Shown one piece after another: positions 38,892 through 62,688 of a stretch of 64,000 nt of DNA. The notes under the pieces were generated by a model that searched no databases, was not told where the DNA came from, and worked only from the letters and a program-made list of their open reading frames with translations. How positions within the stretch are numbered: position 1 is the first letter of the stretch; every line of letters starts with the position of its first letter. The position numbers and the translations under genes are program-made. This stretch comes from Clostridiales bacterium (lineage in GTDB: Bacteria > Bacillota > Clostridia > Oscillospirales > CAG-272). The stretch lies in NCBI GenBank assembly GCA_012522015.1, contig JAAYLD010000044.1:3829-67828 (forward strand), read 5' to 3'.

Positions 38892-38904
38892 CTTAAGTAT
38901 AAAT

Positions 38905-38945
38905 ATAAAAAACCCGGTGCGGAAATCTTCGCACCGGGTTTTTTA
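38905..38945. terminator. Bidirectional terminator separating the UPF0210 gene from the phage-like cluster
   Basis: AAAAAA-CCCGGTGCG/CGCACCGGG-TTTTTT. It lies 33 nt beyond the stop of the last phage-like gene. Confidence 0.85.
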
Positions 38946-38977
38946 TGCCGTATTTTAGCTTTCTAACTGCCGCTTTT

Positions 38978-39445
38978 TCATCCTTCACGCGAAACCGACA
39001 CAACAAGATTCGCCGGGACCATCCGGACTATCATATCTTTTATAATTTCAAACTCCTCATCAGATCCCGCCGATATCACAACCGACAGCGAAGAAGCCGC
39101 GGCATTGACGTCAAGCGTAAAATTCTCCTCGCCACACAGTTCAGCAAGTCGATGACGCAACATACTTTCTGTATACGGCATACCGAAGCGTCCCTTTGCC
39201 GCTAATCGCAGGCGTCTTACGGCGTCTGTGTCTGTAGGTTTTGACGTAACACCGAGGACATCTTCATGACGGGCGAGCCAGCGCTCCTCTGCGTATTTAG
39301 TGAATGGAGCGTCACACATCGCAGCAATATCATCGTAAGCGCGTCTGATGGCGTTGTCGATAACATATGCTAAAGCGCGAAATTCGCGTACATTTGAAAA
39401 AAGCTGAGGCAGATAATCAAGATAATCCTTTTGTTTTATATTCAT
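38978..39445 (-). CDS. XkdU/YmfQ-like baseplate-associated protein (DUF2313-like)
   Basis: 155 aa, immediately after and 4 nt overlapping the baseplate J gene, as in PBSX-type modules. The N-terminus KDYLDYLPQLF resembles this family. Confidence 0.5.
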   Translation of the reverse strand: MNIKQKDYLDYLPQLFSNVREFRALAYVIDNAIRRAYDDIAAMCDAPFTKYAEERWLARHEDVLGVTSKPTDTDAVRRLRLAAKGRFGMPYTESMLRHRLAELCGEENFTLDVNAAASSLSVVISAGSDEEFEIIKDMIVRMVPANLVVSVSREG

Positions 39446-40533
39446 ATAATAGTCACGCTCTCGAAGACTGGCACGATGTTGCTATCAAGCGTTATGCTTG
39501 ATGACACATATGACCCAGATGCGCTGTCATAAATAGTTGTACCGGATACACCTGTAACACATTCCGTCGATAGAATAGCGCTTTCAATGTCTGCTATGTG
39601 TATTATACAGTTATCTACAAAAGCCCACTTAGTGGCGAGCGCATTTACATATTTATCGACGGCTGATCTTATTAACTTGGAAGCTGTTAACTGGTTCCAG
39701 CCGGGAGCATATGTAACGCTTGTCTTGACGATAACGCTGTAACTATCGACTGCCTCGACCGTAACAGAATGGCCAATGGGTGCAACGCCAGAGCCAAGCC
39801 CTGTTTTATCAGCGGGGTCAAGGATATTCTTAATTGATTTAATAAGAGATGTTACGGGCACGCCGTAATCACTTGCTTGAACGACAATTTTTACCGTTCC
39901 GCCACCTGCATGAGCGGGGAAAACCTTGACTCCACCGACGCCGTCTATTTCCGATACATATTCAATATAATCAGCGGCATTACCTCCAAAGGGGACGCCT
40001 GATGCCGCACGCAACACACGTACACGGAACGCTTCTGTACTTTCTTCATCTTGTCCGGGAGAGATGATTCCGCCTGCGCTTGAGTATTTAAGGCCCTCAA
40101 TATATGATACCGGGCTCAAAGTACCATGCGAAAAAGCGTTTGGTTCAGAACCGGGTGTATCACATATTACCTCATATTCTATTACGTGACTACTATCTGA
40201 AATAAACTTACCTAATGTGTAAACATAGTCACGTAGGGTGAACTTACTTCCTTCTGGTAAATATGAATCAAATCTTCCCCTTAAAACTGTGCGCGTTGCC
40301 TCCTTTGGTCTTATGCCATATTCAGCACCGTGCCGGATTAAATACTCGCGTGATGCTGTATCGGAGAACATTTCGGATGCCACTTTAGAACATGCCTTAT
40401 AAAGCTTATCAAGCTCTGCGGCTACCGGTACGACTGCGTCATAGAAAATAGACCCCACGCTTGTGTCTATTCCATCGGGCGCTGCCGAAAGCATGTCAGA
40501 TAAAATTGCGTCAAACGTTTTTCCCTCAAACAT
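39442..40533 (-). CDS. Baseplate J-like protein (XkdT-like)
   Basis: FEGKTFDAILSDMLSAAPDGIDTSVGSIFYDAVVPVAAEL and TASREYLIRHGAEYGIRPKEAT follow the baseplate J pattern. ATG at 40533 with a GAGGG RBS. Confidence 0.7.
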   Translation of the reverse strand: MFEGKTFDAILSDMLSAAPDGIDTSVGSIFYDAVVPVAAELDKLYKACSKVASEMFSDTASREYLIRHGAEYGIRPKEATRTVLRGRFDSYLPEGSKFTLRDYVYTLGKFISDSSHVIEYEVICDTPGSEPNAFSHGTLSPVSYIEGLKYSSAGGIISPGQDEESTEAFRVRVLRAASGVPFGGNAADYIEYVSEIDGVGGVKVFPAHAGGGTVKIVVQASDYGVPVTSLIKSIKNILDPADKTGLGSGVAPIGHSVTVEAVDSYSVIVKTSVTYAPGWNQLTASKLIRSAVDKYVNALATKWAFVDNCIIHIADIESAILSTECVTGVSGTTIYDSASGSYVSSSITLDSNIVPVFESVTII

Positions 40534-40547
40534 ATAATCACCAGCCC

Positions 40548-40901
40548 TCAGTAACAAATATCGACGTACACAACAGCCAGAGCCTTACCACTATATCTTT
40601 CGTTTTTAAAAACAGCTGATTTGAAAGCTTCTCCGTATCGCATAAAAAGAGCATCTTTTATCCTCTCGGAGAGCTCAACGGCAGCATAATGATAATCCCG
40701 ACCTATAAGATCACGGCGATCCACACCAAAAAAGCCGCTATATATATCGCTGTATATGCTTCGTTCGGTGGAGACAAGTAAAAATAAATCCTGGCGAACA
40801 GCGTCTTTCCCCTCGACAAACCCGTTTATCGAATAACCGCAGCCGTCTTTATGGAGTGCATATGTTTTAGACGATGAGTACTTACCATAAAATTTTGACA
40901 T
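40548..40901 (-). CDS. XkdS-like small baseplate protein (DUF2634 / gp25-W-like position)
   Basis: 117 aa, in the position between the XkdR-like and baseplate J genes. Confidence 0.45.
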   Translation of the reverse strand: MSKFYGKYSSSKTYALHKDGCGYSINGFVEGKDAVRQDLFLLVSTERSIYSDIYSGFFGVDRRDLIGRDYHYAAVELSERIKDALFMRYGEAFKSAVFKNERYSGKALAVVYVDICY

Positions 40902-40910
40902 AACGCCCCC

Positions 40911-41201
40911 TTATTTAATGATGTCAATAATGGCATAGCATTGTCCGCCCTCAGCTCTAACCATCATGACATAGCTGCCTTTAGCAAGCTCGGATGAGAC
41001 AGTTCCGGTATACGATGTCCCGCCAATGTTCACATTAAATGTTCGGCTGTAAATCGATGCGGGTGTTATCAGCGCCGAGCCGGTGAGCGTAACATTATTA
41101 TCAATCTTCACAGATAGTGGAGATGTCGATGTTACGACACCACATATAATGTCAGCGGTGACACCGCCATCATGAGCAGTCCCCGCATACTTAATACTCA
41201 T
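40911..41201 (-). CDS. XkdR-like protein (DUF2577; spike/plug position)
   Basis: 96 aa. GVVTSTSPLSVKIDNNVTL and the C-terminus GSYVMMVRAEGGQCYAIIDII match the XkdR-type pattern. Confidence 0.55.
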   Translation of the reverse strand: MSIKYAGTAHDGGVTADIICGVVTSTSPLSVKIDNNVTLTGSALITPASIYSRTFNVNIGGTSYTGTVSSELAKGSYVMMVRAEGGQCYAIIDIIK

Positions 41202-41243
41202 GCTTTAGAACCTCGTTTTATTCAATATAGTTAGTTTTATTTA

Positions 41244-42164
41244 TCAGAGCGCCGAAAGATTAAGCTTCATCGTATAAGAGCTACCAAAAATGTGTTCGGC
41301 GCGCTCACAAAAATAATCAGCAGCTCCATCGCCAAAATCAGCGGTCACAACAGCGCCGGCCCGAGCCGTCAGGTCACCTTTAGTGCATGTGCAAACAATG
41401 CTCCGTTTAGGCGTTGACAGTGAATTGAGAAGGTTAATAGCAACAGATGTTCCATTTTCCTGCGGGCTTAATCTCCCATAATATTGAAGCACACCGTCCC
41501 GGGCGATACGCTCCATATCTTCACGAATGAAAAAATGCCTGCCGGTCCCGCTTGTCTGAACAAGCTTAACTTTGTTGTAATAGTTCTTATCTATGGAAAC
41601 GGTAATTGAAAAATCAGTACATACAGATGGTGTCATGACTGTGCCACAGCGAAGAGACGTCATGCGTTTAAGGCAAAGCCTGCCACAATCATCGTAGTAA
41701 ACAAACTCACCAAAACCGGCGCCGGAGGTAAGTGTCAATGCGTAATCAATAATTTTGTAAAGCGAGACGCCATCCTCAAGACGCGCCGCAATGCGGTATT
41801 TAGTATCTTCGATTTCACCTGTGGTAAAGCCATATTGCTTGGCGATCCTTAGCAGAAGCTTGGATGCCGTCATTCCAACGTATTCAACAGTATCTTTATT
41901 TTCAAAATACCGCAGCATGTCATATGCCGTGTATTTGTAGAGCTTTTCATGCCCGTATTCATATTTAAATACAACACCTTTAAATACGTCGGTACCTCCA
42001 TAACGGAATGTAACGTTCTCACCCGTTTTAATATGCTCGTCAGCGGTAAAATAAAGCGTGCCGGCACTGCCCTGTTCCGTTACAAATCGAACATTATCGT
42101 GCGGTGTGATAACACCTGACGGGAGGATAATCTCGCCACGTGTGTTTGTGACCGACATAATCAT
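41244..42164 (-). CDS. XkdQ-like baseplate hub protein (late-control-D-like)
   Basis: 306 aa. GENVTFRYGGTDVFKGVVF, YDMLRYF, TASKLLLRIAKQYGF, VYYDDCGRLCL and SIDKNYYNKVKL follow the XkdQ family pattern. Confidence 0.6.
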   Translation of the reverse strand: MIMSVTNTRGEIILPSGVITPHDNVRFVTEQGSAGTLYFTADEHIKTGENVTFRYGGTDVFKGVVFKYEYGHEKLYKYTAYDMLRYFENKDTVEYVGMTASKLLLRIAKQYGFTTGEIEDTKYRIAARLEDGVSLYKIIDYALTLTSGAGFGEFVYYDDCGRLCLKRMTSLRCGTVMTPSVCTDFSITVSIDKNYYNKVKLVQTSGTGRHFFIREDMERIARDGVLQYYGRLSPQENGTSVAINLLNSLSTPKRSIVCTCTKGDLTARAGAVVTADFGDGAADYFCERAEHIFGSSYTMKLNLSAL

Positions 42165-42577
42165 AATATCTCCGCCCCGCCGGGATAACGCTTGAGCTTC
42201 AGCGCTGCCGTGACGCTGCCATCATTGTTACGCTTGAGTGTGGCGCGCTTTAATGTCGCATTGAAGCTATATGAATCGAAAAGTGAACCATCATCTCCTG
42301 CCGCTATTGCGATTACACGGAACGGCCACTGGGAAAGCGATGTAAGCTCGTCATAAAACTCACCCGGACGTATAAATCCACCCTCCCATGTAGCAAATTC
42401 CGTGTTGGTCGCAGGAAAATCAAGCGAAAACTCGATTTCATCTGGCGCCGGCGGCGAAAAAATGGCTCTGTCATAACCATCGGCAAGCCTTGCAATAGTA
42501 GTGCAGTCGCCACGAGTTATAACAGTCTCGTCCGGAAAAATGGGCATAAGACGACCGTTGATAAAAAGCTTATACAT
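42161..42577 (-). CDS. XkdP-like (LysM-less) protein; alternatively a divergent tail tube
   Basis: 138 aa. MYKLFINGRLMPIFP at the N-terminus, PFRVIAI in the middle, and a C-terminus LKLKRY, as in the protein that normally follows the tape measure in PBSX-type tails. It does not resemble XkdM tube proteins. Confidence 0.4.
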   Translation of the reverse strand: MYKLFINGRLMPIFPDETVITRGDCTTIARLADGYDRAIFSPPAPDEIEFSLDFPATNTEFATWEGGFIRPGEFYDELTSLSQWPFRVIAIAAGDDGSLFDSYSFNATLKRATLKRNNDGSVTAALKLKRYPGGAEIL

Positions 42578-42612
42578 AAGACGTAACCCCCGATTTTGTG
42601 ATGGCGCGCCGG

Positions 42613-43881
42613 TTAAGCCATAAAAATTGTTATACTGACGTCATATGGGCGCAAAAGTGGCGATACGGCGAGCGAAGCGGTGATAGCGCCTTCCCCGTCT
42701 GTTGTCACATCGGCGGAAATAGTATCACTTCGTACCGCACCGTACTTATGTGATAGCAGAGAAAGAAACGATCTTATCTCATCCGCAAGTGTAGAGCACC
42801 CCGCTGCGTCATCATAGACAACATCTGCATATTTATCATTAAAAATCGTGCGTATATTTGAAACTATATAATCATACAGGCGAATACAGGAGTTGTCGGA
42901 GAGCATACAATCAGATTTTGAAGCCGATGTGTTTATATCACGAAAGATACGAGGGTATAATTCAGCCTTTTTGTGATTTTGATAAACAATCTGCCCCTCC
43001 TCCGCAAGCTGGGAGCACTCTTCATCAGAAAAATCAGCCATTATACCGAAGCTTCCGGCATAACTTTTACCCGCAAGCGTTTCCCACGGATATGAGCTGG
43101 CGCAAAGTCCGGCTGTATAGTAAACAACCCCGCCGCCACCGTATGAATCTTCATTATAAACAGACGTTACAAAAGCGCTGCCATCTCCAAAATAGCGAAA
43201 AAGTACGCATTTTACACATCTCCCCGCCTCTCTCTCACGCCGAACAGCTGAAATACAAGCATCAGCATGGGCAGGTGCGCCATCAGCACACGCTAAGATA
43301 TCAATATTTATTGGATGAGCAAGAAGAGCTTCAATACCGGTGGCAAAATCAAATTCGTCAGGCGTTGCATCGGCACCTCCCGTCAAGGGAAGCCCCGCCG
43401 TCTCAAAAATCACAGCGTCGCGATTGAATATAACAAAAGCATTGTCTTTCAGCTCGGCAGCACTGATGACGACCTGACTGTCAACAGCTTCACTGCAAAG
43501 ATATGTAACAACACGGTATGAACCGTCATCCTGTAAATAAACAACAAGCCTGATTGAATTCCCTCTCGCACCGGGATAACGGGCTTGTCCGAAAGAGCAC
43601 GATGCAACAGAACCACCAGATGGGCGAAAAACAGCTACGGATGATGCGTTTGCAAGAACATCACGTATGCCGTCAAGTGATGGGTCGTCTATGTCGCACG
43701 CGAAAGCTTCTTTAATATATCGCCCCGGTATGAAGCTGCTGCGGGAATAAAGAGAAACCTCGCCGGGTGCGCCCCAGCCAGCATTATATACAATACCGAC
43801 AGTACCGCGCCCACCACCGGGTGGCACAGCGCCGCACCCGTTATAAGCGGTGACACCGCTTGACGCATATATATTTTTCAC
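42613..43881 (-). CDS. Contractile tail sheath protein (XkdK-like)
   Basis: ARYPGARGNSIRLVV (compare PBSX AKYPGARGNRISVTV) and LPLTGGADATP (compare LTGGNDGT). 422 aa. Confidence 0.75.
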   Translation of the reverse strand: MKNIYASSGVTAYNGCGAVPPGGGRGTVGIVYNAGWGAPGEVSLYSRSSFIPGRYIKEAFACDIDDPSLDGIRDVLANASSVAVFRPSGGSVASCSFGQARYPGARGNSIRLVVYLQDDGSYRVVTYLCSEAVDSQVVISAAELKDNAFVIFNRDAVIFETAGLPLTGGADATPDEFDFATGIEALLAHPINIDILACADGAPAHADACISAVRREREAGRCVKCVLFRYFGDGSAFVTSVYNEDSYGGGGVVYYTAGLCASSYPWETLAGKSYAGSFGIMADFSDEECSQLAEEGQIVYQNHKKAELYPRIFRDINTSASKSDCMLSDNSCIRLYDYIVSNIRTIFNDKYADVVYDDAAGCSTLADEIRSFLSLLSHKYGAVRSDTISADVTTDGEGAITASLAVSPLLRPYDVSITIFMA

Positions 43882-43929
43882 AGCCCTATCCCCTCCGCCG
43901 TTATATTCGTATATAAAACAAAGAAAAAC

Positions 43930-44337
43930 TTAAATAAATGAAACATTAATTTCTATTGACTTCATAGGCACGCTTCCGTATGCCGGCGGCGGGATTGTAG
44001 CAGCCATCTCACCGGAATAAACGACCGTAAGCTCCGAATACCTATCATATGCCTTACATTCGTAACTTTCGGCGACGACCTTATCATCCCCCGGTGATAG
44101 CTCCCTTACCGCGTTGAGAAGAGCTGAGCCGTCATGAACTGCCGACGGTGCTCCGGCGGTGAAATACCGAATTTTAACGGCAACCTTAGGGTCACCTCCG
44201 GAAGAATAAAAGCGGTCTACAGTAAAGAATAAGGAGGGAGCTGTGGCGTCAGCAGGAGGGCGCCCTACCGTGATGGCGACGCCGGGGAACGAAGCCCCGA
44301 GCGCCGCGCCAACAGCCGATGCAAAAATATCGGTCAT
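43930..44337 (-). CDS. Head-tail joining / tail completion protein (family uncertain)
   Basis: 135 aa, positioned between the connector and the sheath. Confidence 0.35.
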   Translation of the reverse strand: MTDIFASAVGAALGASFPGVAITVGRPPADATAPSLFFTVDRFYSSGGDPKVAVKIRYFTAGAPSAVHDGSALLNAVRELSPGDDKVVAESYECKAYDRYSELTVVYSGEMAATIPPPAYGSVPMKSIEINVSFI

Positions 44338-44452
44338 AGTTTTAAGCCTCTTTTAAAAAATAGAGTATTGCAGCAACAAATAAAACATAGAAGTCAGTTA
44401 TTTAGCTTGTAGAAGGCCATTTGTGAACATCTACAACACATACCTTCATTAC

Positions 44453-44836
44453 CTACCAGACAAGCCTGCGTTTTGCCCCCGCTACTGATAAGCCGCGTTC
44501 TCTCATCTTTTTTAGCTCCGCACGAAGACGCTCCGCGCTGCTTGTTCCCTTTGTATATGACACCGACAAAGAACCGTCGCGCCTGGAAGAGACCTCCGCT
44601 CCGTCCGTGCCGTCACGAGCCATGACGGTGAGCGCAAAATCAGCACAGACAATGTCGGCAGCCGCGTCCATTAACTCAGATGGAAGGGTGTCGTAACCCG
44701 TTATTGTGCAAAGCTCCGAAACAGCAGCTTTTGTGACAAACGACAAAAGCTCCGTGTCCTCGGGTTTTACCGTAAGACCTATTGCCGCAAGACGAGACGA
44801 TGCCCCTTCGGCAATACTATCGAAAATGTTAATCAT
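44453..44836 (-). CDS. gp6-like head-tail connector (DNA packaging) protein
   Basis: 127 aa immediately after the capsid gene. LLSFVTKAAVSELCTITGYD is a pattern typical of gp6-like connectors. Confidence 0.55.
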   Translation of the reverse strand: MINIFDSIAEGASSRLAAIGLTVKPEDTELLSFVTKAAVSELCTITGYDTLPSELMDAAADIVCADFALTVMARDGTDGAEVSSRRDGSLSVSYTKGTSSAERLRAELKKMRERGLSVAGAKRRLVW

Positions 44837-44846
44837 CGCATCAATC

Positions 44847-45926
44847 TTAACAACCTAATGAGATTATTCTTGCAATCGGAATAAGCGACACATCGATAGG
44901 ATTTTCCTCGGAGTCAAAAACAAGCTCCCAGTTGGCGGGGTTTGCGAGGTCAGTATCCTCAGGCGACAGCGAAGCCTGCTCCTTTTTGATGTAATCAAAG
45001 CCAAACGGATGAATGACCTTGCGCTGGCGAGAATAAAGAATGTCGGATCCTCCGTTGCTGCTCGGGTCGCGATACATCTCATACGGCACCTTTGCACCGA
45101 TATTCTCATAGAAGAAAGCGCCTTCTCCAAGAATATATGAGGTGTATATGGTTCCCTTATCCAGCACCGTTTTAGTAGGAAGCGCGTCACTGACAATGAC
45201 GGAGCGTCCGTTCCATGATCCGATTGAAAGATCACGTGTGATACCCTTTGAGTCTACGTATGTCATATAATTTAAAAGCTGAAGGTTTTCAAGGTTCGTC
45301 GCGATAACAGAGTGGAGGAGAGCAACCGTAAACTTACCCTTATTAGCCCCGCATGCCTTCTGAATCGCAGTATTAAGCGTCGTTGCGCCAACAAGGGCGG
45401 CCTCGCCTGTCTTATCGCTTATATCAAGCGTGTGAGTATCGATGAAATTACTTTTCGCCACACGTTTGTTGTCGTCACCCTCTTCCTCACCGTCATCAAG
45501 CTCGCGAAGCGAAAAGATACCGCCTAAAATGGCAATGAGCGTAGCTTCATCGACTGTTTCCCAGTATTCGGCGATTTGACGGGCGACAATGTCCATATAA
45601 TCATCGCCTGTCAGGTCAGCGGTAAAATCACGCTCCGTCCATGCTTTTGCCCGCCCAATGACGTTCGCACCAAACTCATATGAAGGCGTATTTACCGGTA
45701 TAATGTCAGTTATACCGTCGTAGTTTTGCGCAGCTCCCGTAATAGCACCGTAAAGCGGAATTTTTGCGTATGCTGCATTAGCGGCACCTCGGAATATGGA
45801 ACGAATCTCCGGATTCCCGATAAACGCGCGGCGTGCTTTCAACTCGTCAATTTTGATGCTCGGTACACGTGCAACAAAAGAGCCAAATGCTTCAGAGTCA
45901 AACTTTTTATAGTCAAAGTTTGCCAT
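44847..45926 (-). CDS. Major capsid protein
   Basis: 359 aa, following a GP20-type scaffold gene. Size and position fit. I recall no diagnostic motif. Confidence 0.6.
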   Translation of the reverse strand: MANFDYKKFDSEAFGSFVARVPSIKIDELKARRAFIGNPEIRSIFRGAANAAYAKIPLYGAITGAAQNYDGITDIIPVNTPSYEFGANVIGRAKAWTERDFTADLTGDDYMDIVARQIAEYWETVDEATLIAILGGIFSLRELDDGEEEGDDNKRVAKSNFIDTHTLDISDKTGEAALVGATTLNTAIQKACGANKGKFTVALLHSVIATNLENLQLLNYMTYVDSKGITRDLSIGSWNGRSVIVSDALPTKTVLDKGTIYTSYILGEGAFFYENIGAKVPYEMYRDPSSNGGSDILYSRQRKVIHPFGFDYIKKEQASLSPEDTDLANPANWELVFDSEENPIDVSLIPIARIISLGC

Positions 45927-45986
45927 TTAAAAGTCCTCCAATTTTATTTTAAATAGGTATTCAAGCTCGTTATAAAAATAAAAACA

Positions 45987-46469
45987 TCAGCTTTTGCCAT
46001 AAAGGCGCAAATATTCGCTGTATGTCAGGTCAGATGCCATAAAATCGTCATCCGATTCCTCAGCAGGTGCAATTCCGACAAAAGATAGAGCCTTACGCCC
46101 GCTGTAAGCATAATCAGAGCCGAAAAGATACGGCTCCGCTTCCGCAAGAGAGCGAACAGCCTCGGTAAGGCCCGCCGGCGTGCCCTCAAAGTCGCCGCCA
46201 TCATATGTATAATTGAGTACAGCTTTCGCCGCTTTAATGTTGCGCGCACCTGCTTTTGAAAGCTCCCGCTCAATAGCGAAATTGAGCTTCTGCTCTAAAA
46301 GCGCACGCTGCGCTTTCTCAGAAGATGCCCGTAGCTTTTCTTCAAATTCCGCCTTTATGAGCGATGTTGCCTCGTCAACCGCAGCTTTTGTAGAGCGCTC
46401 TACCTCAGCTAAGATTGCATCAGCCACATCGTCGCCAATACCGAGTGGCATGAGAAAACTTTTGTCCAT
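45987..46469 (-). CDS. Scaffolding protein (phage GP20-like)
   Basis: 160 aa, coiled-coil and Ala/Glu/Lys-rich, between the portal and capsid genes. N-terminus FLMPLGIGDDVADAILAE. Confidence 0.65.
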   Translation of the reverse strand: MDKSFLMPLGIGDDVADAILAEVERSTKAAVDEATSLIKAEFEEKLRASSEKAQRALLEQKLNFAIERELSKAGARNIKAAKAVLNYTYDGGDFEGTPAGLTEAVRSLAEAEPYLFGSDYAYSGRKALSFVGIAPAEESDDDFMASDLTYSEYLRLYGKS

Positions 46470-46502
46470 ATAAAACCTCCCCTGACATCTCGTATGCCTT
46501 CG

Positions 46503-47864
46503 TTAATTTAATTCAAGCCGCGCAAGCTCGCCTTCGATATCGTCGACATACGGATGCTGCGCGATGAGAGTTCGTCGAGATAAAATACCCTCCGAATTTT
46601 TAAGCGAATTTATAATTTCAGACTCGTTTATAAGAAGATCGCGGTTTAGCACAACCTTTGCAGCAACCCCTCTGAAATCGCCCGCCCCGGTATAGTATAA
46701 ATAAGAACGAATGTAACCAAACCACGACTCGAAAGCGCACTGAAGCTCCGATTCAAAGCCATTTGCGTCAAGGTCGATGTCCGAATAAATCGCAAGAACA
46801 TTCATTTGATTCGGATTGTTTGAAAGACGTCCGTCGTGAGAGTCAAAACCCCGGCAGCACTCCGTCAGTGCCTGCATTAACATTTTCTTTAGCGCTTCGT
46901 AATTTTCAGCCTTTACCTCAACAGCCAAGCTTTCGACGCCGCCATCGCCTCCGGCGTCAGAGCGCACCTTGACAGCTCCATACGCCGCAAGATTGCGGCG
47001 AAATTCACCAAGGTCCTCACCATCGTAATTTTTTAACACAAGAACTGTACTCCGGCTGTTCTCCTGCATGTTGTCAGCAAAATCAGACACCAAAATATCA
47101 AGAGCATCCTGCAAGTTCTTTGCCCGCCTGATAAGCGGAACCTCGCTGCTGTTATATTTAACGGGGATTATCGGGACTCTGTCCCAGAGATAGCCCTTAC
47201 CATTGCTGTCACAAAAATGATACCCGACTCGTGAAACAGGGCGCAGCCGCCCATTTGAATATGCGTACTCCTCAATCCCGCTTTTTGTATAAACAAAAAC
47301 GCTCTCTTCAACCGAACGGCGTCGGTTGCTGTAAACCTCACGTGTACACAGCCGTATAAAAGCATCAAGCCGCGTGTGAGCAGCATCGCTCCAAAGCGGC
47401 AGACACATTGTCGGATCAAATCGCCGCAGAGTAAGCATTCCACTCTTGTCTATATAAGGATGAAGCCATGCAACGCCACAGTTGACAGCGTCAGTTGCCG
47501 TATCCCGCCATATTTTTTTTGCTGTATGCTCGAAAAAACTGGCAAGAAGAGATGCAAAACGCTTATTATCACAATCAATTGAAAACGGTTTACCAAGCGA
47601 ATAATTTATCTTTTGATCGACAAGCCGCGCATATTGCCCGACAGCTATTCTGCTGCAAGCGACGTTATCAAGCACCTCAGGCTTGCCATCAGCGCCAATA
47701 GCCGTTTTATGGCGGCGCAGCACATCGTGTTCTCCTGCATAATAACGCTTAGCCGTTATCATCTCCTCTCGGCGACGGGAGGAAAGGAATCGCGCCAGCT
47801 CCGCTTCAATCATGTCAAGATAACAGCCCCGCCCGCCATTCACTCTCATTTCTTTTATCATCAT
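46503..47864 (-). CDS. Portal protein (SPP1 gp6-like)
   Basis: About 453 aa. AKRYYAGEHDVL near the N-terminus is characteristic. ATG at 47864 lies 8 nt after AGGAG. Confidence 0.75.
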   Translation of the reverse strand: MMIKEMRVNGGRGCYLDMIEAELARFLSSRRREEMITAKRYYAGEHDVLRRHKTAIGADGKPEVLDNVACSRIAVGQYARLVDQKINYSLGKPFSIDCDNKRFASLLASFFEHTAKKIWRDTATDAVNCGVAWLHPYIDKSGMLTLRRFDPTMCLPLWSDAAHTRLDAFIRLCTREVYSNRRRSVEESVFVYTKSGIEEYAYSNGRLRPVSRVGYHFCDSNGKGYLWDRVPIIPVKYNSSEVPLIRRAKNLQDALDILVSDFADNMQENSRSTVLVLKNYDGEDLGEFRRNLAAYGAVKVRSDAGGDGGVESLAVEVKAENYEALKKMLMQALTECCRGFDSHDGRLSNNPNQMNVLAIYSDIDLDANGFESELQCAFESWFGYIRSYLYYTGAGDFRGVAAKVVLNRDLLINESEIINSLKNSEGILSRRTLIAQHPYVDDIEGELARLELN

Positions 47865-48052
47865 CAAAAAAACTCCTGACCGTGTTATCGTCTGTATCAA
47901 CACAAAACAAAAACACTGCGCATAACATTAAGCAGCCTATATAAAAAAGCCTAATCAAACCCTGACAACACTTGAATTGTAACACTGAAAAAAAGTAAAT
48001 ATCGTCCAGATTTTCCCGCTGCAGTCACAACAGTATAACGGAACAAATAGTT

Positions 48053-49297
48053 TTAAAAGCTGAAAACAGCACCCGCCGCTGCATCCTCAACTGCATATCT
48101 CATTGCATCCATCAAATGATCGCACTTGCCAACCGGACGGTTGACAGCCTTCCCTGATGCATCCGTTGCCCAGACATAACTACGTATTTCTTCGGCGAAA
48201 GCGCGGCAGCACGGATGAATGATAATTTTATTTCGTCTGACAAGATCTATACCTGAAAGAAGACTGTCCCGTCCCTTTCGCGACGGAACAATCCGGTAAA
48301 GCCCAAGCTCACGCAGCTCAGATATCGACTTTGGCTCCGCAGCGTCGGCACAAATCCGCTCCTTTTTATATCCCCGCTCAATTATGAGGCGTGCGAGCCG
48401 ATCGTTTGTCAGCGAACGCTCGTATATCTCGTCGAATACATATATTTCACGTGTGGCAGGGTCAAAAATACCGCAGAAAAGAGCGCTCGGATCGTTCGTA
48501 TAACCAAAATCAAGCCCGAATATCGCCTTTGTACCGGGACGCCGAAGAATATCGGTGGGCGAAAACTCCCTTATCTCGTAGTTTTCATAAACAAGACCGC
48601 TCTCGTGCCCCCACTCGCCAAGCCCGGCAACGCGATAACGAGCCGGACGCTCCTTTTTCATTGTCTCGAACATTCGCCGGTCAGCCTCGTCAAGAAATTC
48701 GTTGCACATATAGTTTTTCGTAACAGCAAGAATATCGGGCGACGGAGGTGCGTCAAAGAACCGGCGCTTTAACCAGTGATTTTCATTCCACGGATTAAAC
48801 GTCAGCGTGATTTGCTTAAAATAACCATCAGGCACAGAACCGCGTATAAGCTCATCGAGTGTGTTAAAATCATCTTCATTCGTTATCTCAAACGCTTCCT
48901 CAATCCAAAGCCAACATAAAGCGCCGTACTCGACAGCAATTGACGTCAGCTTCATCGGATCGTCAAGCCCTTTGAAGATAATTTTTTGCCCTGTCCGCCG
49001 TCGCGTTATCTCAAGCGGAGAGGTGCGAAACTCAAACTCCCTCTCGACGCCAAGGCGACGCGCCGCCCATTTCAACTCCGTGTAACAGGAACGCTCAAGC
49101 GACGCGTAAGTCCTTCGCACAACGAGCAGATTGGCAAGCGGATACTTCCGCAGCCCGTTAATATACCAGAGAGCCGCCGTCTTTGACTTTTTCGATGCGC
49201 GTGAGCCTTTGACAACACGGTACCGCCCGCGAAAACGCCAAAAGTCAGCATATCCGCCCCCTACCGCTTGCGAAATATCAACCTTACGCCAAAGCAT
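48053..49297 (-). CDS. Terminase large subunit (PBSX XtmB-like)
   Basis: N-terminal ATPase with VKGSRASKKSKT (Walker A-like) and a C-terminal nuclease. It overlaps the small subunit gene by 14 nt. Confidence 0.8.
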   Translation of the reverse strand: MLWRKVDISQAVGGGYADFWRFRGRYRVVKGSRASKKSKTAALWYINGLRKYPLANLLVVRRTYASLERSCYTELKWAARRLGVEREFEFRTSPLEITRRRTGQKIIFKGLDDPMKLTSIAVEYGALCWLWIEEAFEITNEDDFNTLDELIRGSVPDGYFKQITLTFNPWNENHWLKRRFFDAPPSPDILAVTKNYMCNEFLDEADRRMFETMKKERPARYRVAGLGEWGHESGLVYENYEIREFSPTDILRRPGTKAIFGLDFGYTNDPSALFCGIFDPATREIYVFDEIYERSLTNDRLARLIIERGYKKERICADAAEPKSISELRELGLYRIVPSRKGRDSLLSGIDLVRRNKIIIHPCCRAFAEEIRSYVWATDASGKAVNRPVGKCDHLMDAMRYAVEDAAAGAVFSF

Positions 49298-49766
49298 CGT
49301 TACCCGCGCTCGTATTATCCTCCTCGTCAAAGAGGAGCTTCTCCTCACCGACGATTACAGTTTGCCTCATACCGCCGTCGCCATTGAAAATGCCATAACG
49401 ACGGGCTAACATTTCTGCCGCTGACATCCGCTCTTTTACCGACGCGCTTTTCTCGATTACACGAGCAGCACGCTCGGTTTTACCGGATGCACCTGTAAGC
49501 TGCTCAACAACGACAACAGGCTCGCGCACACATCCTCGCATGACAGACGTCAGCATCCGAAGAACCTCATCACACCCTGCAATACCTGAATCATTGTCAA
49601 AATCATAATCCGACAAGCCAAGCTCTTCCCTGACAGCTTTGCTTTTGAGAAGAGAAGCCCGACTTCCGGCTTTGTAACCGGCAAGGCGCGCCGCTTCGTT
49701 TACATTCTTGCAGCTTCTATAATATTCACAAAACTTCCTTTGTTTTTCAGTCAACTTCCTTTTCAT
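49284..49766 (-). CDS. Terminase small subunit (P27/Terminase_4-like)
   Basis: MKRKLTEKQRKFCEYYRSCKNVNEAARLAGYK is the canonical HTH N-terminus of this family. Confidence 0.75.
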   Translation of the reverse strand: MKRKLTEKQRKFCEYYRSCKNVNEAARLAGYKAGSRASLLKSKAVREELGLSDYDFDNDSGIAGCDEVLRMLTSVMRGCVREPVVVVEQLTGASGKTERAARVIEKSASVKERMSAAEMLARRYGIFNGDGGMRQTVIVGEEKLLFDEEDNTSAGNDALA

Positions 49767-49922
49767 ATACAAACCGCTCTGCGTTATTTTTATTGAGGTG
49801 TATAGTACCTCCTACCGAAGCAAATATTACCACGCCAAAGCGGTAAAAACCGTCATCCTGTAATCGACCTTTCATGCGCTTGCGCCATCATAAAACATAG
49901 CTTTTAAAAACGCACCTTTCCC

Positions 49923-50345
49923 TTATAGCTGCCCGTTTAGCTTCATGTATCTTTCACATCGCTTACGGGCGTATTGCTCGTCATACTCGCCGAGAGCAAA
50001 TGCTGTTTGCTGCCAGGTCTTCCCGTATAAAAACCGATGTTTCATCGCTGACCGTATAAAAGGTATATCGATCGCTTCAATATAGTGTTCAATTCTTTCA
50101 TACTTTGAGAGAAGCTCGTCCATCCGAGTCTTTATACTTGTCTCAAGCTTTGATATTCTCACATCAAAGTCAACAGTATCAGACTCCGAATATTCTTTTT
50201 CTTTGAGTGCTGCAGCCGCTTCACGAAGCGCTGCAAGCTCGCGAAGCTGCGAGCGCAGAAGCTGGAGTTCGTATTTTATGTGACGGTACTGCGAAAGCTC
50301 GTTTTTGATATTATATGTTGTCCTTTTTTCGCTAATACGACTCAC
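49923..50345 (-). CDS. Phage late-gene activator, sigma-70 region 4 / ArpU / DUF1492-like
   Basis: 140 aa. N-terminal coiled coil. C-terminal RSAMKHRFLYGKTWQQTAFALGEYDEQYARKRCERYMK is HTH-like. GTG start overlaps the upstream ORF by 14 nt. Confidence 0.55.
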   Translation of the reverse strand: MSRISEKRTTYNIKNELSQYRHIKYELQLLRSQLRELAALREAAAALKEKEYSESDTVDFDVRISKLETSIKTRMDELLSKYERIEHYIEAIDIPFIRSAMKHRFLYGKTWQQTAFALGEYDEQYARKRCERYMKLNGQL

Positions 50346-50649
50346 CAGCCTTCATAATTTTGTCTGTAATCTCAGAAAGCGCTTCGGAGACTGAGCCAAG
50401 TCCGCATATATCAAGAAATTCCGCCATCGAAAGCTTTTCAATGCACATCTCGCATATTATCTGCCCGACACCGTGACGCAGCCCGTATATGTACGTATCG
50501 TCAGGGTAAATACAGCTTCCGCACGAGCCACATACAAGCTCGCTTCCGCACCCTGAATCACAGAAGTATTCATCTGCGCATCCTGCGTCGCCAGCATTGA
50601 GCGGGCATCCTTCCATATGACTAAACCCATAACCGCAAACGTCACACAT
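50332..50649 (-). CDS. Cys-rich (multi-CxxC) small protein, first gene of the phage-like cluster
   Basis: ATG at 50649 follows a GGGGG RBS. The 105-aa product has 17 Cys, including CDVCG, CGSCGSC and CEMC. Confidence 0.5.
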   Translation of the reverse strand: MCDVCGYGFSHMEGCPLNAGDAGCADEYFCDSGCGSELVCGSCGSCIYPDDTYIYGLRHGVGQIICEMCIEKLSMAEFLDICGLGSVSEALSEITDKIMKAGESY

Positions 50650-50659
50650 GGCTAACCCC

Positions 50660-50673
50660 CAAACAAATGTTCG
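50660..50673 (-). promoter_or_regulatory. LexA (Cheo) box 1 in the leader of the phage-like cluster
   Basis: Minus strand CGAACATTTGTTTG fits GAAC-N4-GTTY and abuts the RBS of the first gene. Confidence 0.55.
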
Positions 50674-50689
50674 TTTTATGTGAGAAATA

Positions 50690-50715
50690 AAACGCGCCAA
50701 AATAAAAGCGCGTTT
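50690..50715 (-). promoter_or_regulatory. Leader hairpin (terminator-like) between the promoter and the first phage-like gene
   Basis: Minus strand AAACGCGC-loop-GCGCGTTTTATTT, starting about 8 nt after the predicted transcription start. Confidence 0.45.
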
Positions 50716-50729
50716 ATTTTATGTGCCTA

Positions 50730-50758
50730 ATTATACCATAAAATTTAGATATTGTCAA
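50730..50758 (-). promoter_or_regulatory. Consensus extended -10 sigma-A promoter of the phage-like cluster
   Basis: Minus strand TTGACA-17 nt-TATAAT with TGg immediately upstream of the -10. Confidence 0.75.
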
Positions 50759-50766
50759 TATAAAAC

Positions 50767-50780
50767 AGAACAAATGTTCG
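50767..50780 (-). promoter_or_regulatory. LexA (Cheo) box 2, 8 nt upstream of the -35
   Basis: Minus strand CGAACATTTGTTCT has a perfect GAAC-N4-GTTC core. It shares the 12-mer CGAACATTTGTT with box 1. Confidence 0.6.
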
Positions 50781-50865
50781 TATTTTTCGTACTCCGTTAT
50801 TTTGTATTATTTAATATAAAATAAGAAAAATAATAAGCTGAAAAGACATACTTCACACTTAATGC

Positions 50866-50894
50866 TTGACAAATAGAGTTCACATAATTATAAT
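50866..50894 (+). promoter_or_regulatory. Sigma-A promoter for nfo
   Basis: TTGACA-17 nt-TATAAT. This shows the ORF-track start at 50866 is spurious. Confidence 0.7.
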
Positions 50895-50952
50895 AAAAAA
50901 GATCATAGGTTCGCATATTAACAAAAATAACCATAAAAGGTTTAAGAATTAT

Positions 50953-52809: not shown

Positions 52810-54008
52810 TTAAAGAGAAAACTCTTTGTCGTAGATAACAGTGAAGTTACCGCACTTTTTAAACCAATCAACATTTTCTGTGTGTACGGGAATAATATAT
52901 CTTGGCTTTACATCACTGATTAATGCCCTTATCGTTTCTTCGTCAGCATGTCCGCTTATATGTAAATCAACGATACGAACGCCTTTGTCTTGCATGAACT
53001 GAAGAAACTTTGCAACATCTTCCTTCTCTTTATATCCATTCCACATTGAGTAGAACAGAATACCGCCATTAAACGATATTTCTTCCGATAGCTTTTCCAG
53101 AGAACTTTCATAGACGGGCGAACACACATGACAAAGCGCTGTTTCGCGATACCCGCCCTTCCTATTTTTGATTTTTTGTATTTGCTATCCAGAAGTTCAT
53201 ACCGTTCATTACAACCGTTTGTGATAAAAACGCGCACACCGGAAAAAGTCACAGGATTGGGAATGTTTTCTCCGGCTGCAGAGGCAACCTCAGCCATATA
53301 CAAATCCTGTAATAAAACGCGGTTGCTTCTGCGCGCTGCCTTGAATATGGTAACAATGCGATCAATATTAGTGGCAGCTTGTAGAATGAATACAGGTGCG
53401 CTAATTTGAGAGATTTCCTCATATGCTAATTGCTCTAAATCCGTTTCTGTTTTAGGAGGAACAGGGGCTCTCGAAAGTGTCGTTCCCTCTATAATTAACA
53501 CGTCCGCTTGAGGTAGCCTATGAAGTAAATGCGAAAAGCTCTTCCTACCATTTGAACGAAAATCCCCGGAATAAATCAGTGCTTTATCACCGCAAGCTAT
53601 ATGAAACATATACGCATCAAATGCAGAATGGTAACATTGATATGGCGTAATTTGAAAATCTCCGATGGAAATTGTTTTTCCCGACTCATAATGGGCGGTA
53701 AAATGATATTCTGGTTTATTCAAATATCTTTTAGCTGCATTAGTCACATCCGCCGCCCTTTTCCCAATATAAATCGGGATTTCGGGCAATACTTGATCAC
53801 ATAAACCTAAATGATCGCCATGATAGTGAGAGATGAACACGGCATCATAAGACGCTTGTCCGAAAAACAAGCCTTCTATTTGCGGCGCAACAGGGATTTC
53901 TTCGTCCAATTCTGATCCAGCATCAAGTATGATTTTTGTTGTCTTGGAAGCGATTTCAATGATTGAGCCGCCTATTTGATTTTGTCCACGGTGAATAATG
54001 ATGTTCAT
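52810..54008 (-). pseudogene. MBL-fold metallo-hydrolase interrupted by a frameshift in a homopolymer tract
   Basis: The N-terminal frame (54008 to about 53170) carries HYHGDHLG. The C-terminal frame (open from about 53192 to 52810) carries LHISGHAD and IPVHTE. The frames overlap around the T5 and T6 runs at 53165-53177 (plus strand). Confidence 0.7.
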
Positions 54009-60982: not shown

Positions 60983-61061
60983 AATGTAAACACCATCCCT
61001 TTTTTGTATTGGTATTTTGTGGGATTGTAAGAAATTTTGTTTTAATATTGCATTAATGCTA

Positions 61062-62114: not shown

Positions 62115-62125
62115 AGTTTTTCACC

Positions 62126-62662: not shown

Positions 62663-62688
62663 AACTACATTCCTCCCATGCGAGTATT

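What the first reader, a model, noticed from the sequence alone, without database searches (positions are those of the whole stretch)
38978..50790. Pared-down PBSX-like head plus contractile-tail cluster with no lysogeny, replication, lysis or fibre genes: domesticated phage / GTA-like candidate
Sixteen co-directional minus-strand ORFs are packed with 4-14 nt overlaps. In order they are: a Cys-rich protein, a sigma-r4/ArpU-like activator, TerS, TerL, portal, GP20-type scaffold, capsid, connector, one completion protein, sheath, and XkdP/Q/R/S/T/U-like proteins. The cluster is only about 11.7 kb. Nothing inside it or next to it looks like an integrase, CI/Cro/Xre repressor, replication gene, holin, endolysin or tail fibre. 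The last gene stops 33 nt before a housekeeping terminator (38905-38945). The first gene sits beside the nfo promoter. I found no att-like direct repeat. All ORFs are intact and the base composition resembles the host. A decaying prophage usually shows broken genes. An intact, minimal, packaging-competent structural set under host control is the signature of gene transfer agents and PBSX-type defective phages. I know of no described contractile-tail version this small in Clostridia.
Basis: partly seen in the sequence, partly recalled or inferred. Interest (0 to 1): 0.78.

Follow-up and report, generated by a model that had tools for sequence, protein, structure and literature searches.

The report
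Domesticated tubeless phage cluster, SOS-wired
Sixteen phage head, DNA-packaging and tail-baseplate genes are fixed in the chromosome of an uncultured Clostridia lineage, kept intact by selection across species and apparently switched on by DNA damage, yet they lack the tail tube and length-ruler genes that every contractile tail needs, so this is probably an unusual gene-transfer-agent-like particle maker.

Summary
Sixteen co-directional minus-strand genes (38978-50649) encode a Cys-rich protein, a phage regulator, TerS, TerL, portal, scaffold, capsid, adaptor, tail terminator, sheath, a LysM-less XkdP-type tube initiator and XkdQ/R/S/T/U. There is no integrase, repressor, replication, tube, chaperone, tape measure, fibre or lysis gene in the cluster or in about 84 kb around it.

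New findings:
- Three lineages that differ at dS of about 0.4-0.7 carry the same 16 genes between the same housekeeping genes. Omega is 0.05-0.31 for every gene. There are 29 indels in 1 kb of spacers against 4 in 11 kb of coding DNA.
- A perfect TTGACA-17-TGnTATAAT promoter is flanked by two conserved clostridial LexA boxes, which implies direct SOS control.
- Every junction piece of the tail is kept, while the tube, chaperone and tape measure are cleanly gone.
- A much more distant lineage shows the same junction of sheath followed by LysM-less initiator.

Verdict: a domesticated, SOS-wired, GTA/PBSX-like element of a new, tubeless layout. Particle formation, DNA transfer and the source of the missing parts are untested. 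It is a new variant of a known kind, with interest about 0.62.

The parts
50768..50780 (-). LexA (SOS) box 1, CGAACATTTGTTC, 9 nt upstream of the -35 hexamer
   Evidence: It is conserved in L006 and L014, where it reads as the perfect palindrome CGAACAATTGTTCG. It matches the clostridial operator GAACnnnnGTTC/T (PMC4234289).
50730..50758 (-). Consensus sigma-A promoter, TTGACA-17-TATAAT with an extended TG
   Evidence: 12 of 12 matches. Both hexamers are invariant in three lineages.
50690..50715 (-). Leader stem-loop with A-tract and U-tract (looks like an intrinsic terminator), just after the predicted transcription start
   Evidence: The fold has dG -20.6 kcal/mol and z = -2.7. The stem is conserved and the loop varies in L006 and L014. 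Its role is unknown.
50661..50673 (-). LexA box 2, CGAACATTTGTTT, directly upstream of the ribosome-binding site of the first gene
   Evidence: It is invariant in three lineages.
50332..50649 (-). Cys-rich 105-aa protein with several CxxC motifs; first gene; function unknown
   Evidence: No family hit in Pfam, PHROGs, NCBIfam or PADLOC. Omega is 0.10-0.14.
49923..50345 (-). Phage-type transcriptional regulator, the putative late-gene activator
   Evidence: phrog_36, E=3e-8. A homologue sits immediately upstream of terS in phage record MT835552.1 (E=2e-10). Omega is 0.12.
49767..49922 (-). Conserved non-coding spacer between the regulator and terS, with hairpin TTACCGCTTTGGCGTGGTAA at 49827-49846; a candidate late promoter or attenuator
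   Evidence: In the metagenome collection the 20-mer occurs only in this cluster.
49284..49766 (-). Small terminase subunit, with the N-terminal HTH region retained
   Evidence: Terminase_2, E=1.6e-15, covering profile positions 1-132. Omega is 0.07-0.09.
48053..49330 (-). Large terminase subunit (the start conserved in the other lineages corresponds to 49297)
   Evidence: Terminase_3 plus Terminase_3C. It is the most constrained gene, with omega 0.04-0.05.
46503..47864 (-). SPP1-type portal protein
   Evidence: PF05133, E=1.8e-64. Omega is 0.08-0.12.
45987..46469 (-). Head scaffolding protein
   Evidence: PF06810 and phrog_194.
44847..45926 (-). Major capsid protein
   Evidence: phrog_247, E=2.6e-75. 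It is 50% identical to the capsid of C. tetani phage phiCT453A. Omega is 0.10-0.14.
44453..44836 (-). Head-tail adaptor
   Evidence: phrog_132, E=3.6e-6.
43930..44337 (-). Tail terminator (gpU-like fold)
   Evidence: AF2 model with pLDDT 74.5. The top Foldseek matches are the lambda gpU tail cap or terminator, the pyocin R2 collar and the diffocin collar. The only sequence homologues are orthologues.
42613..43881 (-). Tail sheath, highly diverged
   Evidence: phrog_279, E=2.4e-38; PF17481 and PF17482 hits are weak. The nearest non-orthologous homologue is 33% identical. Omega is 0.21-0.23.
42161..42577 (-). XkdP-type tube-initiator domain without LysM; it follows the sheath after a 35-nt gap, where tube, chaperone and tape measure normally lie
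   Evidence: Homologues are the N-terminal domains of LysM proteins. hhalign gives 99.95% probability to phiCT453A XkdP and 0.1% to XkdM tubes. It has a tube-family fold, and the best match is a phiCD508 baseplate chain.
41244..42164 (-). Baseplate hub, XkdQ/YqbQ-like
   Evidence: PF24032, E=4.9e-62.
40911..41201 (-). XkdR-like DUF2577 protein (central spike or tip component)
   Evidence: PF10844, E=1.1e-12.
40548..40901 (-). Sheath initiator, XkdS/gp25-like
   Evidence: PF10934, E=1.1e-8.
39442..40533 (-). Baseplate wedge, Baseplate_J/XkdT
   Evidence: PF04865, E=1.6e-42.
38978..39445 (-). Baseplate wedge, Mu Gp48/XkdU-like; last gene
   Evidence: PF10076, E=1.5e-16; phrog_521.
38904..38947 (.). 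Bidirectional intrinsic terminator shared with the convergent DUF711 gene
   Evidence: 17-20 bp stem.

Best explanation
This is a domesticated, immobile, vertically inherited phage-derived gene cluster. The host lineage keeps it under purifying selection and has wired it directly to the SOS response.

Inferred sequence of events:
1. DNA damage leads to LexA cleavage.
2. That de-represses a consensus sigma-A promoter.
3. The Cys-rich protein and a phage-type regulator are made, and they drive or permit expression of the 14 downstream genes.
4. TerS, TerL, portal, scaffold and capsid build DNA-filled heads, packaging from the chromosome because there is no excision or replication.
5. The adaptor, terminator, sheath, tube initiator and XkdQ-U supply tail and baseplate parts.

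The locus alone cannot make a canonical contractile tail or lyse the cell. The most likely reading is therefore a GTA/PBSX-like particle system encoded at more than one locus, as in RcGTA and FpGTA, with tube, tape measure, fibre and lysis functions encoded elsewhere.

What is shown: gene content, conserved synteny, selection, the promoter and operator motifs, and the absence of the named genes within about 84 kb.

What is inferred: SOS induction, particle formation, DNA packaging and transfer, and the existence of other loci.

My confidence is about 0.85-0.9 for the 'domesticated, selected, SOS-wired' part and about 0.4-0.45 for the 'multi-locus GTA-like particle' part.
For: Gene content.

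Synteny: the same 16 genes lie between YpsA/nfo and DUF711/ACT/DUF624/RNHCP/PfkB in the window's species (the exact sheath protein is listed in 160 blocks of the collection) and in two diverged lineages, L006 and L014/L018/L029.

Selection:
- Per-gene omega is 0.05-0.31, and dS of 0.25-0.84 is similar to the flanking housekeeping genes at 0.28-0.70.
- For the concatenated genes, omega is 0.12-0.14 for all three lineage pairs.
- There are 29 indels in 1,030 nt of spacer against 4 in 11,031 nt of coding DNA. Three of the four are in frame, and the fourth is a single base at the adaptor stop codon.
- TerL, portal and capsid are the most constrained genes.

No mobility or lysogeny functions and no att repeats.

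Regulation: a perfect promoter and two LexA boxes are conserved in three lineages, and the motif matches the published clostridial operator. The divergent DNA-repair gene nfo carries its own LexA-like box.

Full-length comparators: phiCT453A and MT835552.1 have the same gene order and show exactly which genes were removed. The junctions left behind are clean, 31-35 nt long.

Precedent: FpGTA in Faecalibacterium keeps baseplate, fibre and lysis genes at a second locus 125 kb away.
Against: - No second locus was found. There are no tube, tape measure, fibre or lysis genes in the window or within 10 kb beyond either end.
- The conserved reg-terS motif occurs nowhere else in the metagenome collection.
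- The missing tube, chaperone and tape measure genes are internal to the canonical gene order. Relocating them is less parsimonious than deleting them.
- TerS retains its DNA-binding N-terminus. The FpGTA authors describe GTA TerS as lacking an obvious DNA-binding domain.
- The known distribution is narrow: three close lineages plus one distant fragmentary one.
- There is no expression, particle or transfer data.
- LexA binding is predicted from sequence only.
Confidence: 0.5

Rival explanations
1. It makes a particle with a tubeless or stub tail. The tube, chaperone and tape measure were deleted on purpose-like lines, meaning the deletion was selected. The terminator ring then stacks directly on the XkdP-derived initiator ring above the hub, with one or a few sheath rings bridging baseplate and terminator. 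The result would be a podovirus-like particle derived from a myovirus. A variant of this idea is that the initiator-derived protein itself polymerises as a tube without a ruler.
For: - Every single-copy junction piece of the tail is kept and is under selection: terminator, sheath, sheath initiator, tube initiator, hub, spike and wedges. Only the length-giving parts and LysM are gone, and the sheath-to-initiator junction is a clean 35 nt.
- The same junction, sheath C-terminus followed after 26 nt by a LysM-less initiator and then XkdQ/R/S/T, occurs in a far more diverged lineage (L025, L023, L024). There XkdT is 51-53% identical, XkdQ 38% and the initiator 36%.
- FpGTA particles show no visible tail.
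Against: - From established structural knowledge, no contractile-tail system is known to assemble sheath without a tube, and tape measure proteins are needed for tube initiation and for DNA or channel delivery.
- Fibres and lysis genes must still come from elsewhere, so other loci are needed anyway.
- The distant lineage is known only from contigs of 3 kb or less, so its wider context is unknown.
Confidence: 0.2
2. It is a helper-dependent element. The cluster is a fixed, satellite-like parasite or partner of a resident or infecting PBSX-type phage. It borrows that phage's tube, tape measure, fibres and lysis functions, and it spreads or benefits through in-situ (lateral-transduction-like) packaging that starts at its own terS.
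For: - It has its own TerS with a DNA-binding region, plus TerL, portal and capsid, as capsid-forming PICIs do.
- The missing functions are exactly those a co-resident myovirus would supply.
- SOS control would synchronise it with prophage induction.
Against: - There is no integrase, excision, replication or helper-sensing module and no att sites.
- It sits at one chromosomal site, and its dS and lineage distances track the flanking genes, so inheritance is vertical.
- It carries sheath and baseplate genes that a tail-hijacking satellite would not need.
- No close phage relative of its tail genes exists in the phage or IMG/VR collections.
Confidence: 0.12
3. The genes are retained for a role unrelated to DNA transfer. 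Examples are interference with superinfecting phage assembly or another SOS-linked cellular function, with no complete particle ever made.
For: - Purifying selection shows function but does not say which function.
- The set is incomplete for a virion.
Against: - No PADLOC defence-family hits.
- It is hard to explain why all 16 genes, including terminase, portal, scaffold and each baseplate component, stay intact with the packaging genes the most constrained, unless an assembled, DNA-packaging structure is the selected product.
Confidence: 0.08
4. It is a decaying, strain-specific prophage remnant with no function.
For: Large parts of a full phage genome are missing.
Against: - The identical gene set lies at the same site in three lineages separated by dS of about 0.4-0.7.
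- Omega is 0.05-0.31 for every gene.
- Indels are about 80-fold rarer per nucleotide in coding DNA than in spacers, and there are no pseudogenes.
Confidence: 0.02

Closest known systems
PBSX of Bacillus subtilis (defective prophage / GTA-like tailocin)
   Same: It is a chromosomal, non-replicating, SOS-inducible phage-like element of a Gram-positive host. It has TerS and TerL, portal, scaffold, capsid, sheath and the XkdP/Q/R/S/T/U baseplate families in the same order (gene order as in the PBSX-type tail of phiCT453A).
   Different: - PBSX has the tube XkdM, XkdN, the tape measure XkdO, full-length LysM XkdP, fibres and a lysis cassette, and it is controlled by Xre and Xpf (established knowledge).
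- Here the tube, chaperone, tape measure, LysM, fibres and lysis genes are absent.
- Control here appears to be direct, through LexA boxes.
- This cluster is about 11.8 kb, against about 28 kb for PBSX.
FpGTA of Faecalibacterium (PMC12946183)
   Same: - It is a compact head and packaging operon of about 10 kb in an anaerobic Clostridia host, conserved across species.
- It lacks lysogeny and replication genes.
- Its particles have no visible tail.
- Other structural and lysis genes lie at a second locus.
   Different: - FpGTA is described as podovirus-like, with a TerS that lacks an obvious DNA-binding domain.
- The present cluster carries a myovirus sheath and a PBSX-type baseplate, and its TerS has an intact N-terminal region.
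- FpGTA has experimental particle and packaging data. This element has none.
RcGTA-type alphaproteobacterial GTAs
   Same: They are vertically inherited, selection-maintained head-tail clusters of about 15 kb under host regulators. Fibre, lysis and maturation genes lie at other loci, and LexA influences production (established knowledge, cited in PMC12946183).
   Different: They have an unrelated siphovirus-type tail with tube and tape measure in the main cluster, a different regulatory circuit (CtrA/GafA) and no sheath.
Domesticated defective prophages (pervasive purifying selection on vertically inherited prophage remnants; Bobay, Touchon and Rocha 2014, cited from memory)
   Same: Vertical inheritance, purifying selection, and loss of lysogeny and replication modules.
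   Different: Most such remnants are heterogeneous fragments. Here a coherent, streamlined 16-gene morphogenetic operon with its own SOS promoter is conserved gene for gene.
R-type tailocins (diffocin, R-pyocin) and capsid-forming PICIs
   Same: - With diffocin and R-pyocin: the sheath, the baseplate families, and the folds of the terminator and the initiator.
- With cf-PICIs: own terminase, portal and capsid, and an incomplete tail.
   Different: - Tailocins have no head or terminase genes and always have a tube and a tape measure.
- cf-PICIs have integrase and replication modules and no tail genes.
- Neither set of definitions fits this cluster.

Membership tests
Gene transfer agent (viriform) | Phage-derived structural and packaging genes resident in the host chromosome, without integrase, repressor or replication genes | tested here: met
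Gene transfer agent (viriform) | Vertical inheritance with purifying selection across host lineages | tested here: met
   The site and gene set are the same in three lineages. Omega is 0.05-0.31 and dS is comparable with the flanking genes.
Gene transfer agent (viriform) | Expression under host regulatory control | tested here: met
   Met at the sequence level only. There are two conserved LexA operators around a consensus promoter. Binding and induction were not tested.
Gene transfer agent (viriform) | A gene set sufficient to build and release a complete particle (possibly spread over several loci) | tested here: not met
   Not met for this locus and about 84 kb around it. There are no tube, tape measure, fibre or lysis genes. 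The rest of the genome could not be searched.
Gene transfer agent (viriform) | Particles package quasi-random host DNA in pieces too small to carry the whole cluster, and deliver that DNA to recipients | not testable with these tools
   This needs sequencing of virus-like-particle DNA and transfer assays.
PBSX-type defective prophage | Complete contractile tail module, including tube XkdM, XkdN and tape measure XkdO | tested here: not met
PBSX-type defective prophage | Own lysis cassette and an Xre/Xpf-type control module | tested here: not met
   No holin or amidase homologue. The regulator matches only PHROG 36.
R-type tailocin / eCIS | Sheath, tube, tape measure and baseplate, with no capsid or terminase genes | tested here: not met
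   Head and terminase genes are present, and tube and tape measure are absent.
Capsid-forming PICI / phage satellite | Integrase, att sites, replication module; head genes but no tail genes | tested here: not met
   Sheath and baseplate genes are present.
Inducible intact prophage | Lysogeny, replication, complete virion and lysis modules | tested here: not met
   Comparison with phiCT453A and MT835552.1.

The most novel reading that the evidence does not exclude
A myovirus-derived particle has dispensed with the tail tube, chaperone and tape measure but keeps the sheath. Either the terminator docks directly on an XkdP-derived initiator ring, giving a stub tail, or that initiator-derived protein has become a ruler-less tube. 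This design would have been stable long enough to be shared by lineages whose baseplate proteins are only 36-53% identical. It would be a new architecture for phage-like DNA-packaging particles, and it would be directly LexA-controlled.
Probability: 0.2. Interest if true: 0.85.

Novelty: new variant of a known kind. Interest (0 to 1): 0.62.

Why it matters
- GTA-like packaging of host DNA has just been reported as common in gut and anaerobe Clostridia, but only one gene cluster (FpGTA) has been identified (PMC12946183). This element is a concrete, selection-maintained second candidate with a different ancestry, a PBSX-type myovirus.
- It has a simple, testable regulatory input: two LexA boxes on a consensus promoter.
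- Its gene content poses a sharp structural question. What do a sheath, a terminator, a tube initiator and a full baseplate do without a tube and a tape measure?
- Either answer is informative. Hidden second loci would extend the multi-locus GTA pattern to contractile systems in Gram-positive bacteria. A genuinely tubeless assembly would be a new particle architecture.

Tried and rejected
1. Neutral remnant or strain-specific deletion: rejected by dN/dS, the indel distribution and conserved synteny.
2. ORF 43930-44337 as a hidden tube: rejected. Its fold is the gpU-like terminator, and hhalign against phiCT453A neck and tube proteins found nothing.
3. ORF 42161-42577 as an XkdM-type tube: rejected by sequence. 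Probability is 99.95% to XkdP and 0.1% to tubes. Fold alone cannot separate tube from initiator.
4. Search for a second operon through the conserved reg-terS hairpin 20-mer in metagenome contigs: only the cluster itself was found.
5. A 28-nt similarity between that spacer and the sheath gene is not conserved in the other lineages, so it is chance.
6. Apparent frameshifts in L002 (ORFs of 83 and 87 aa) are four single-base gaps in a 3.6x-coverage assembly. The odd 5' end of L023 is a palindromic assembly artefact. Neither is evidence of decay.
7. Defence-system libraries, NCBIfam, Rfam and PDB sequence searches gave nothing for the unassigned ORFs or spacers.
8. Scans of GTDB representative genomes and IMG/VR with the capsid, the initiator family or the distant XkdQ found only the same clade (L011, L029) or remote ordinary phages.
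9. The sheath homologues P0004 and P0006 are ordinary phage sheaths, one followed by a DUF2001 tube.
10. The Cys-rich protein has no counterpart at the equivalent position in MT835552.1.

Full report
**Observation**

The region holds 16 co-directional minus-strand ORFs between a bidirectional terminator (38904-38947) and the divergent nfo promoter.

Pfam and PHROG searches assign them as follows:
- TerS, TerL, an SPP1-type portal, scaffold, major capsid protein and head-tail adaptor.
- Sheath.
- XkdQ/YqbQ hub, XkdR (DUF2577), XkdS sheath initiator, XkdT Baseplate_J and XkdU (Mu Gp48-like).
- A PHROG-36 transcriptional regulator.
- Three ORFs had no family hit.

Gene calls on identical contigs and conservation of start codons place the true first start at 50649, giving a Cys-rich protein of 105 aa. 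Only some junctions overlap. The others have gaps of 9-188 nt. G+C of 0.44-0.50 lies within the window's range.

**The two unassigned structural ORFs**

ORF 43930-44337 has only orthologues in the 5.8-billion-protein search. Its AlphaFold model has pLDDT 74.5. The best matches are the lambda gpU tail terminator or cap and the collar proteins of pyocin R2 and diffocin. It is a tail terminator, not a tube.

ORF 42161-42577 has remote homologues whose N-terminal ~135 residues align with it. Several of these homologues carry a C-terminal LysM domain.
- A profile of this family matches the XkdP-like LysM protein of phiCT453A with 99.95% probability.
- The same profile matches the XkdM tubes of phiCT453A and MT835552.1 with about 0.1% probability.
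- The model (pLDDT 73.5) has the tube-family fold, and the best match is a phiCD508 baseplate chain.

It is therefore the tube-initiator domain of XkdP, without LysM.

**What is missing**

Two full-length comparators have the same gene order:
- C. tetani phage phiCT453A, whose capsid is 50% identical.
- The uncultivated gut phage record MT835552.1, which also has a homologue of the regulator directly upstream of terS.

Against these, the cluster lacks:
- the lysogeny and replication modules;
- the SPP1 gp7-like minor head protein;
- three or more neck proteins;
- the tube, the XkdN chaperone and the tape measure;
- the LysM half of XkdP;
- fibres, holin and endolysin.

tblastn of the phiCT453A versions finds none of them anywhere in the 64-kb window. 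The neighbours are core genes: nfo, ypsA, a beta-CASP nuclease, trkAH, ctsR-mcsAB-clpC, DUF711/ACT, pfkB, 2-oxoacid dehydrogenase and others. Ten kb beyond each end of the window there are no phage genes either. No flanking direct repeat exists.

The junctions left by the losses are short and clean:
- sheath to initiator, 35 nt;
- portal to scaffold, 33 nt;
- XkdU to terminator, 31 nt.

**Is it a decaying remnant?**

No. The exact sheath protein is listed in 160 blocks of the assembly collection, always in the same context. Strains of the species are 99.9% identical over 12 kb.

Two diverged lineages carry the same 16 genes, with the same lengths, between the same housekeeping genes:
- L006, whose sheath is 85% identical.
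- L014, L018, L029 and the DTU064 biogas MAG L011, with sheath about 82-86% identical.

Selection measures:
- Per-gene dN/dS is 0.05-0.31. TerL (0.04-0.05), portal and capsid are the most constrained. The sheath and the initiator are the least constrained (0.21-0.31).
- dS is 0.25-0.84, comparable with the flanking housekeeping genes at 0.28-0.70.
- For the concatenated genes, omega is 0.12-0.14 for all three lineage pairs. The window-L014 pair is the most distant for both cluster and flanks.
- In a global alignment with L014 there are 29 indels in 1,030 nt of spacer. There are 4 in 11,031 nt of coding sequence. Three of these are in frame, and one is a single base at a stop codon.

Those criteria were a full-length prophage in relatives and dN/dS near 1.

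**Regulation (new)**

Upstream of the first gene lies a perfect TTGACA-17-TGnTATAAT promoter. Two sites flank it: CGAACATTTGTTC (50768-50780) and CGAACATTTGTTT (50661-50673).
- These are two of only three matches to this pattern in the whole 64 kb.
- They fit the clostridial LexA operator GAACnnnnGTTC/T used for C. difficile, C. acetobutylicum and C. perfringens (PMC4234289).
- The hexamers and both boxes are conserved in all three lineages, although spacers differ by about 20% overall.

The divergent promoter of the repair gene nfo has its own LexA-like box. It is perfect in L006 and L014 and has one degenerate half-site in the window.

Two further conserved elements have unknown roles:
- A conserved terminator-like stem-loop lies between the promoter and box 2, with dG -20.6 kcal/mol and z -2.7.
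- A conserved 156-nt spacer with a hairpin lies between the regulator and terS.

No Rfam family matches. The inferred circuit is that LexA cleavage leads to the early pair of Cys-rich protein and regulator, which then leads to the structural genes.

**The structural puzzle**

The element keeps every single-copy junction component of a contractile tail: terminator, sheath, sheath initiator, tube initiator, hub, spike and two wedge proteins. It keeps them under selection. It lacks the polymeric tube and its ruler and chaperone.

A far more diverged lineage (L025, L023, L024) shows the same junction. A sheath C-terminus is followed after 26 nt by a 137-aa LysM-less initiator and then XkdQ, XkdR, XkdS and XkdT. 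Identities to the window are 30% for the sheath C-terminus, 36% for the initiator, 38% for XkdQ, 47% for XkdR, 38% for XkdS and 51-53% for XkdT. The odd start of L023 is an assembly palindrome. The tubeless layout is therefore not a one-off. However, these contigs are 3 kb or shorter and their context is unknown.

**Interpretation**

The part I regard as well supported, at about 0.85-0.9, is that this is a domesticated, immobile, vertically inherited phage-derived morphogenetic operon wired to the SOS response.

How it yields a working particle is open. Lysis genes, and probably fibres, must come from elsewhere, as in RcGTA and FpGTA. I therefore rank the readings as follows:
1. A multi-locus GTA/PBSX-like system.
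2. A genuinely tubeless or initiator-as-tube tail, at about 0.2.
3. Dependence on a helper phage, at about 0.12.
4. A non-transfer role, at about 0.08.
5. Neutral decay, which is excluded.

Points against a classical GTA are the retained TerS DNA-binding region, the lack of any second locus found so far and the narrow known distribution.

**Comparison and novelty**

The element works like PBSX, RcGTA or FpGTA in being a chromosomal, selected phage-particle gene set under host control. It fails the defining features of PBSX (tube, tape measure, lysis), tailocins (no head), cf-PICIs (integrase, replication, no tail) and intact prophages.

I found no description of such a tubeless head-plus-baseplate cluster in the searchable literature. 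I classify it as a new variant of a known kind, with interest 0.62. The most novel reading not excluded, a tubeless contractile-derived particle, has probability of about 0.2 and would merit about 0.85.

Noticed in passing
window 50866-50913 (+): The divergent nfo (endonuclease IV) gene has a perfect TTGACA-17-TATAAT promoter. A LexA-like box follows it just downstream of the -10 hexamer. The box reads GATCATAGGTTCG in the window, with one degenerate half-site, and GAACACAGGTTCG in L006 and L014. nfo may therefore belong to the SOS regulon in this clade. Its likely start is the ATG at 50953, not the TTG at 50866.
   Followed up: partly
window 52810-54059 (-): The beta-lactamase-fold / RMMBL (beta-CASP-like) gene appears as two overlapping ORFs, 367 aa with Lactamase_B and 105 aa with RMMBL. 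Different assemblies call it differently: 363 aa, or 350+61, or 286+105. This could be a frameshift, a pseudogene, or inconsistent gene calling.
   Followed up: no
L020 (MT835552.1, 33.7 kb, human faecal phage scaffold, unannotated): This record is the best full-length comparator for the cluster. Its gene order is regulator, TerS, TerL, portal, gp7, scaffold, capsid, five neck ORFs, sheath, tube, XkdN, tape measure, XkdP with LysM, XkdQ-U, fibre. It has a homologue of the cluster's regulator (27% identity, E=2e-10) immediately upstream of terS.
   Followed up: partly
L025 1-992; L023 525-3063; L024: A second, deeply diverged lineage has a sheath followed directly by a 137-aa LysM-less XkdP-type initiator and then XkdQ/R/S/T. 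Only contigs of 3 kb or less are available. Whether head genes, the same chromosomal site or LexA boxes accompany it is unknown.
   Followed up: partly
window 42613-43881 (-): The sheath is unusually isolated in sequence space. In the 5.8-billion-protein search only orthologues at 82% identity or more were found, and the next hits are at 33% or less. The Phage_sheath_1 N-terminal Pfam domain is not detected, although the protein aligns nearly end to end with phage sheaths.
   Followed up: partly
window 50690-50715 (-): A conserved hairpin flanked by an A-tract and a U-tract, resembling a bidirectional intrinsic terminator, sits between the SOS promoter and the first gene. It would be expected to terminate or attenuate the cluster's own transcript. 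No explanation was found for it.
   Followed up: partly
window 58448-63141 (-): The canonical ctsR-mcsA-mcsB-clpC stress operon and trkA/trkH lie a few kb from the cluster. This confirms that the element sits in a core chromosomal region.
   Followed up: yes
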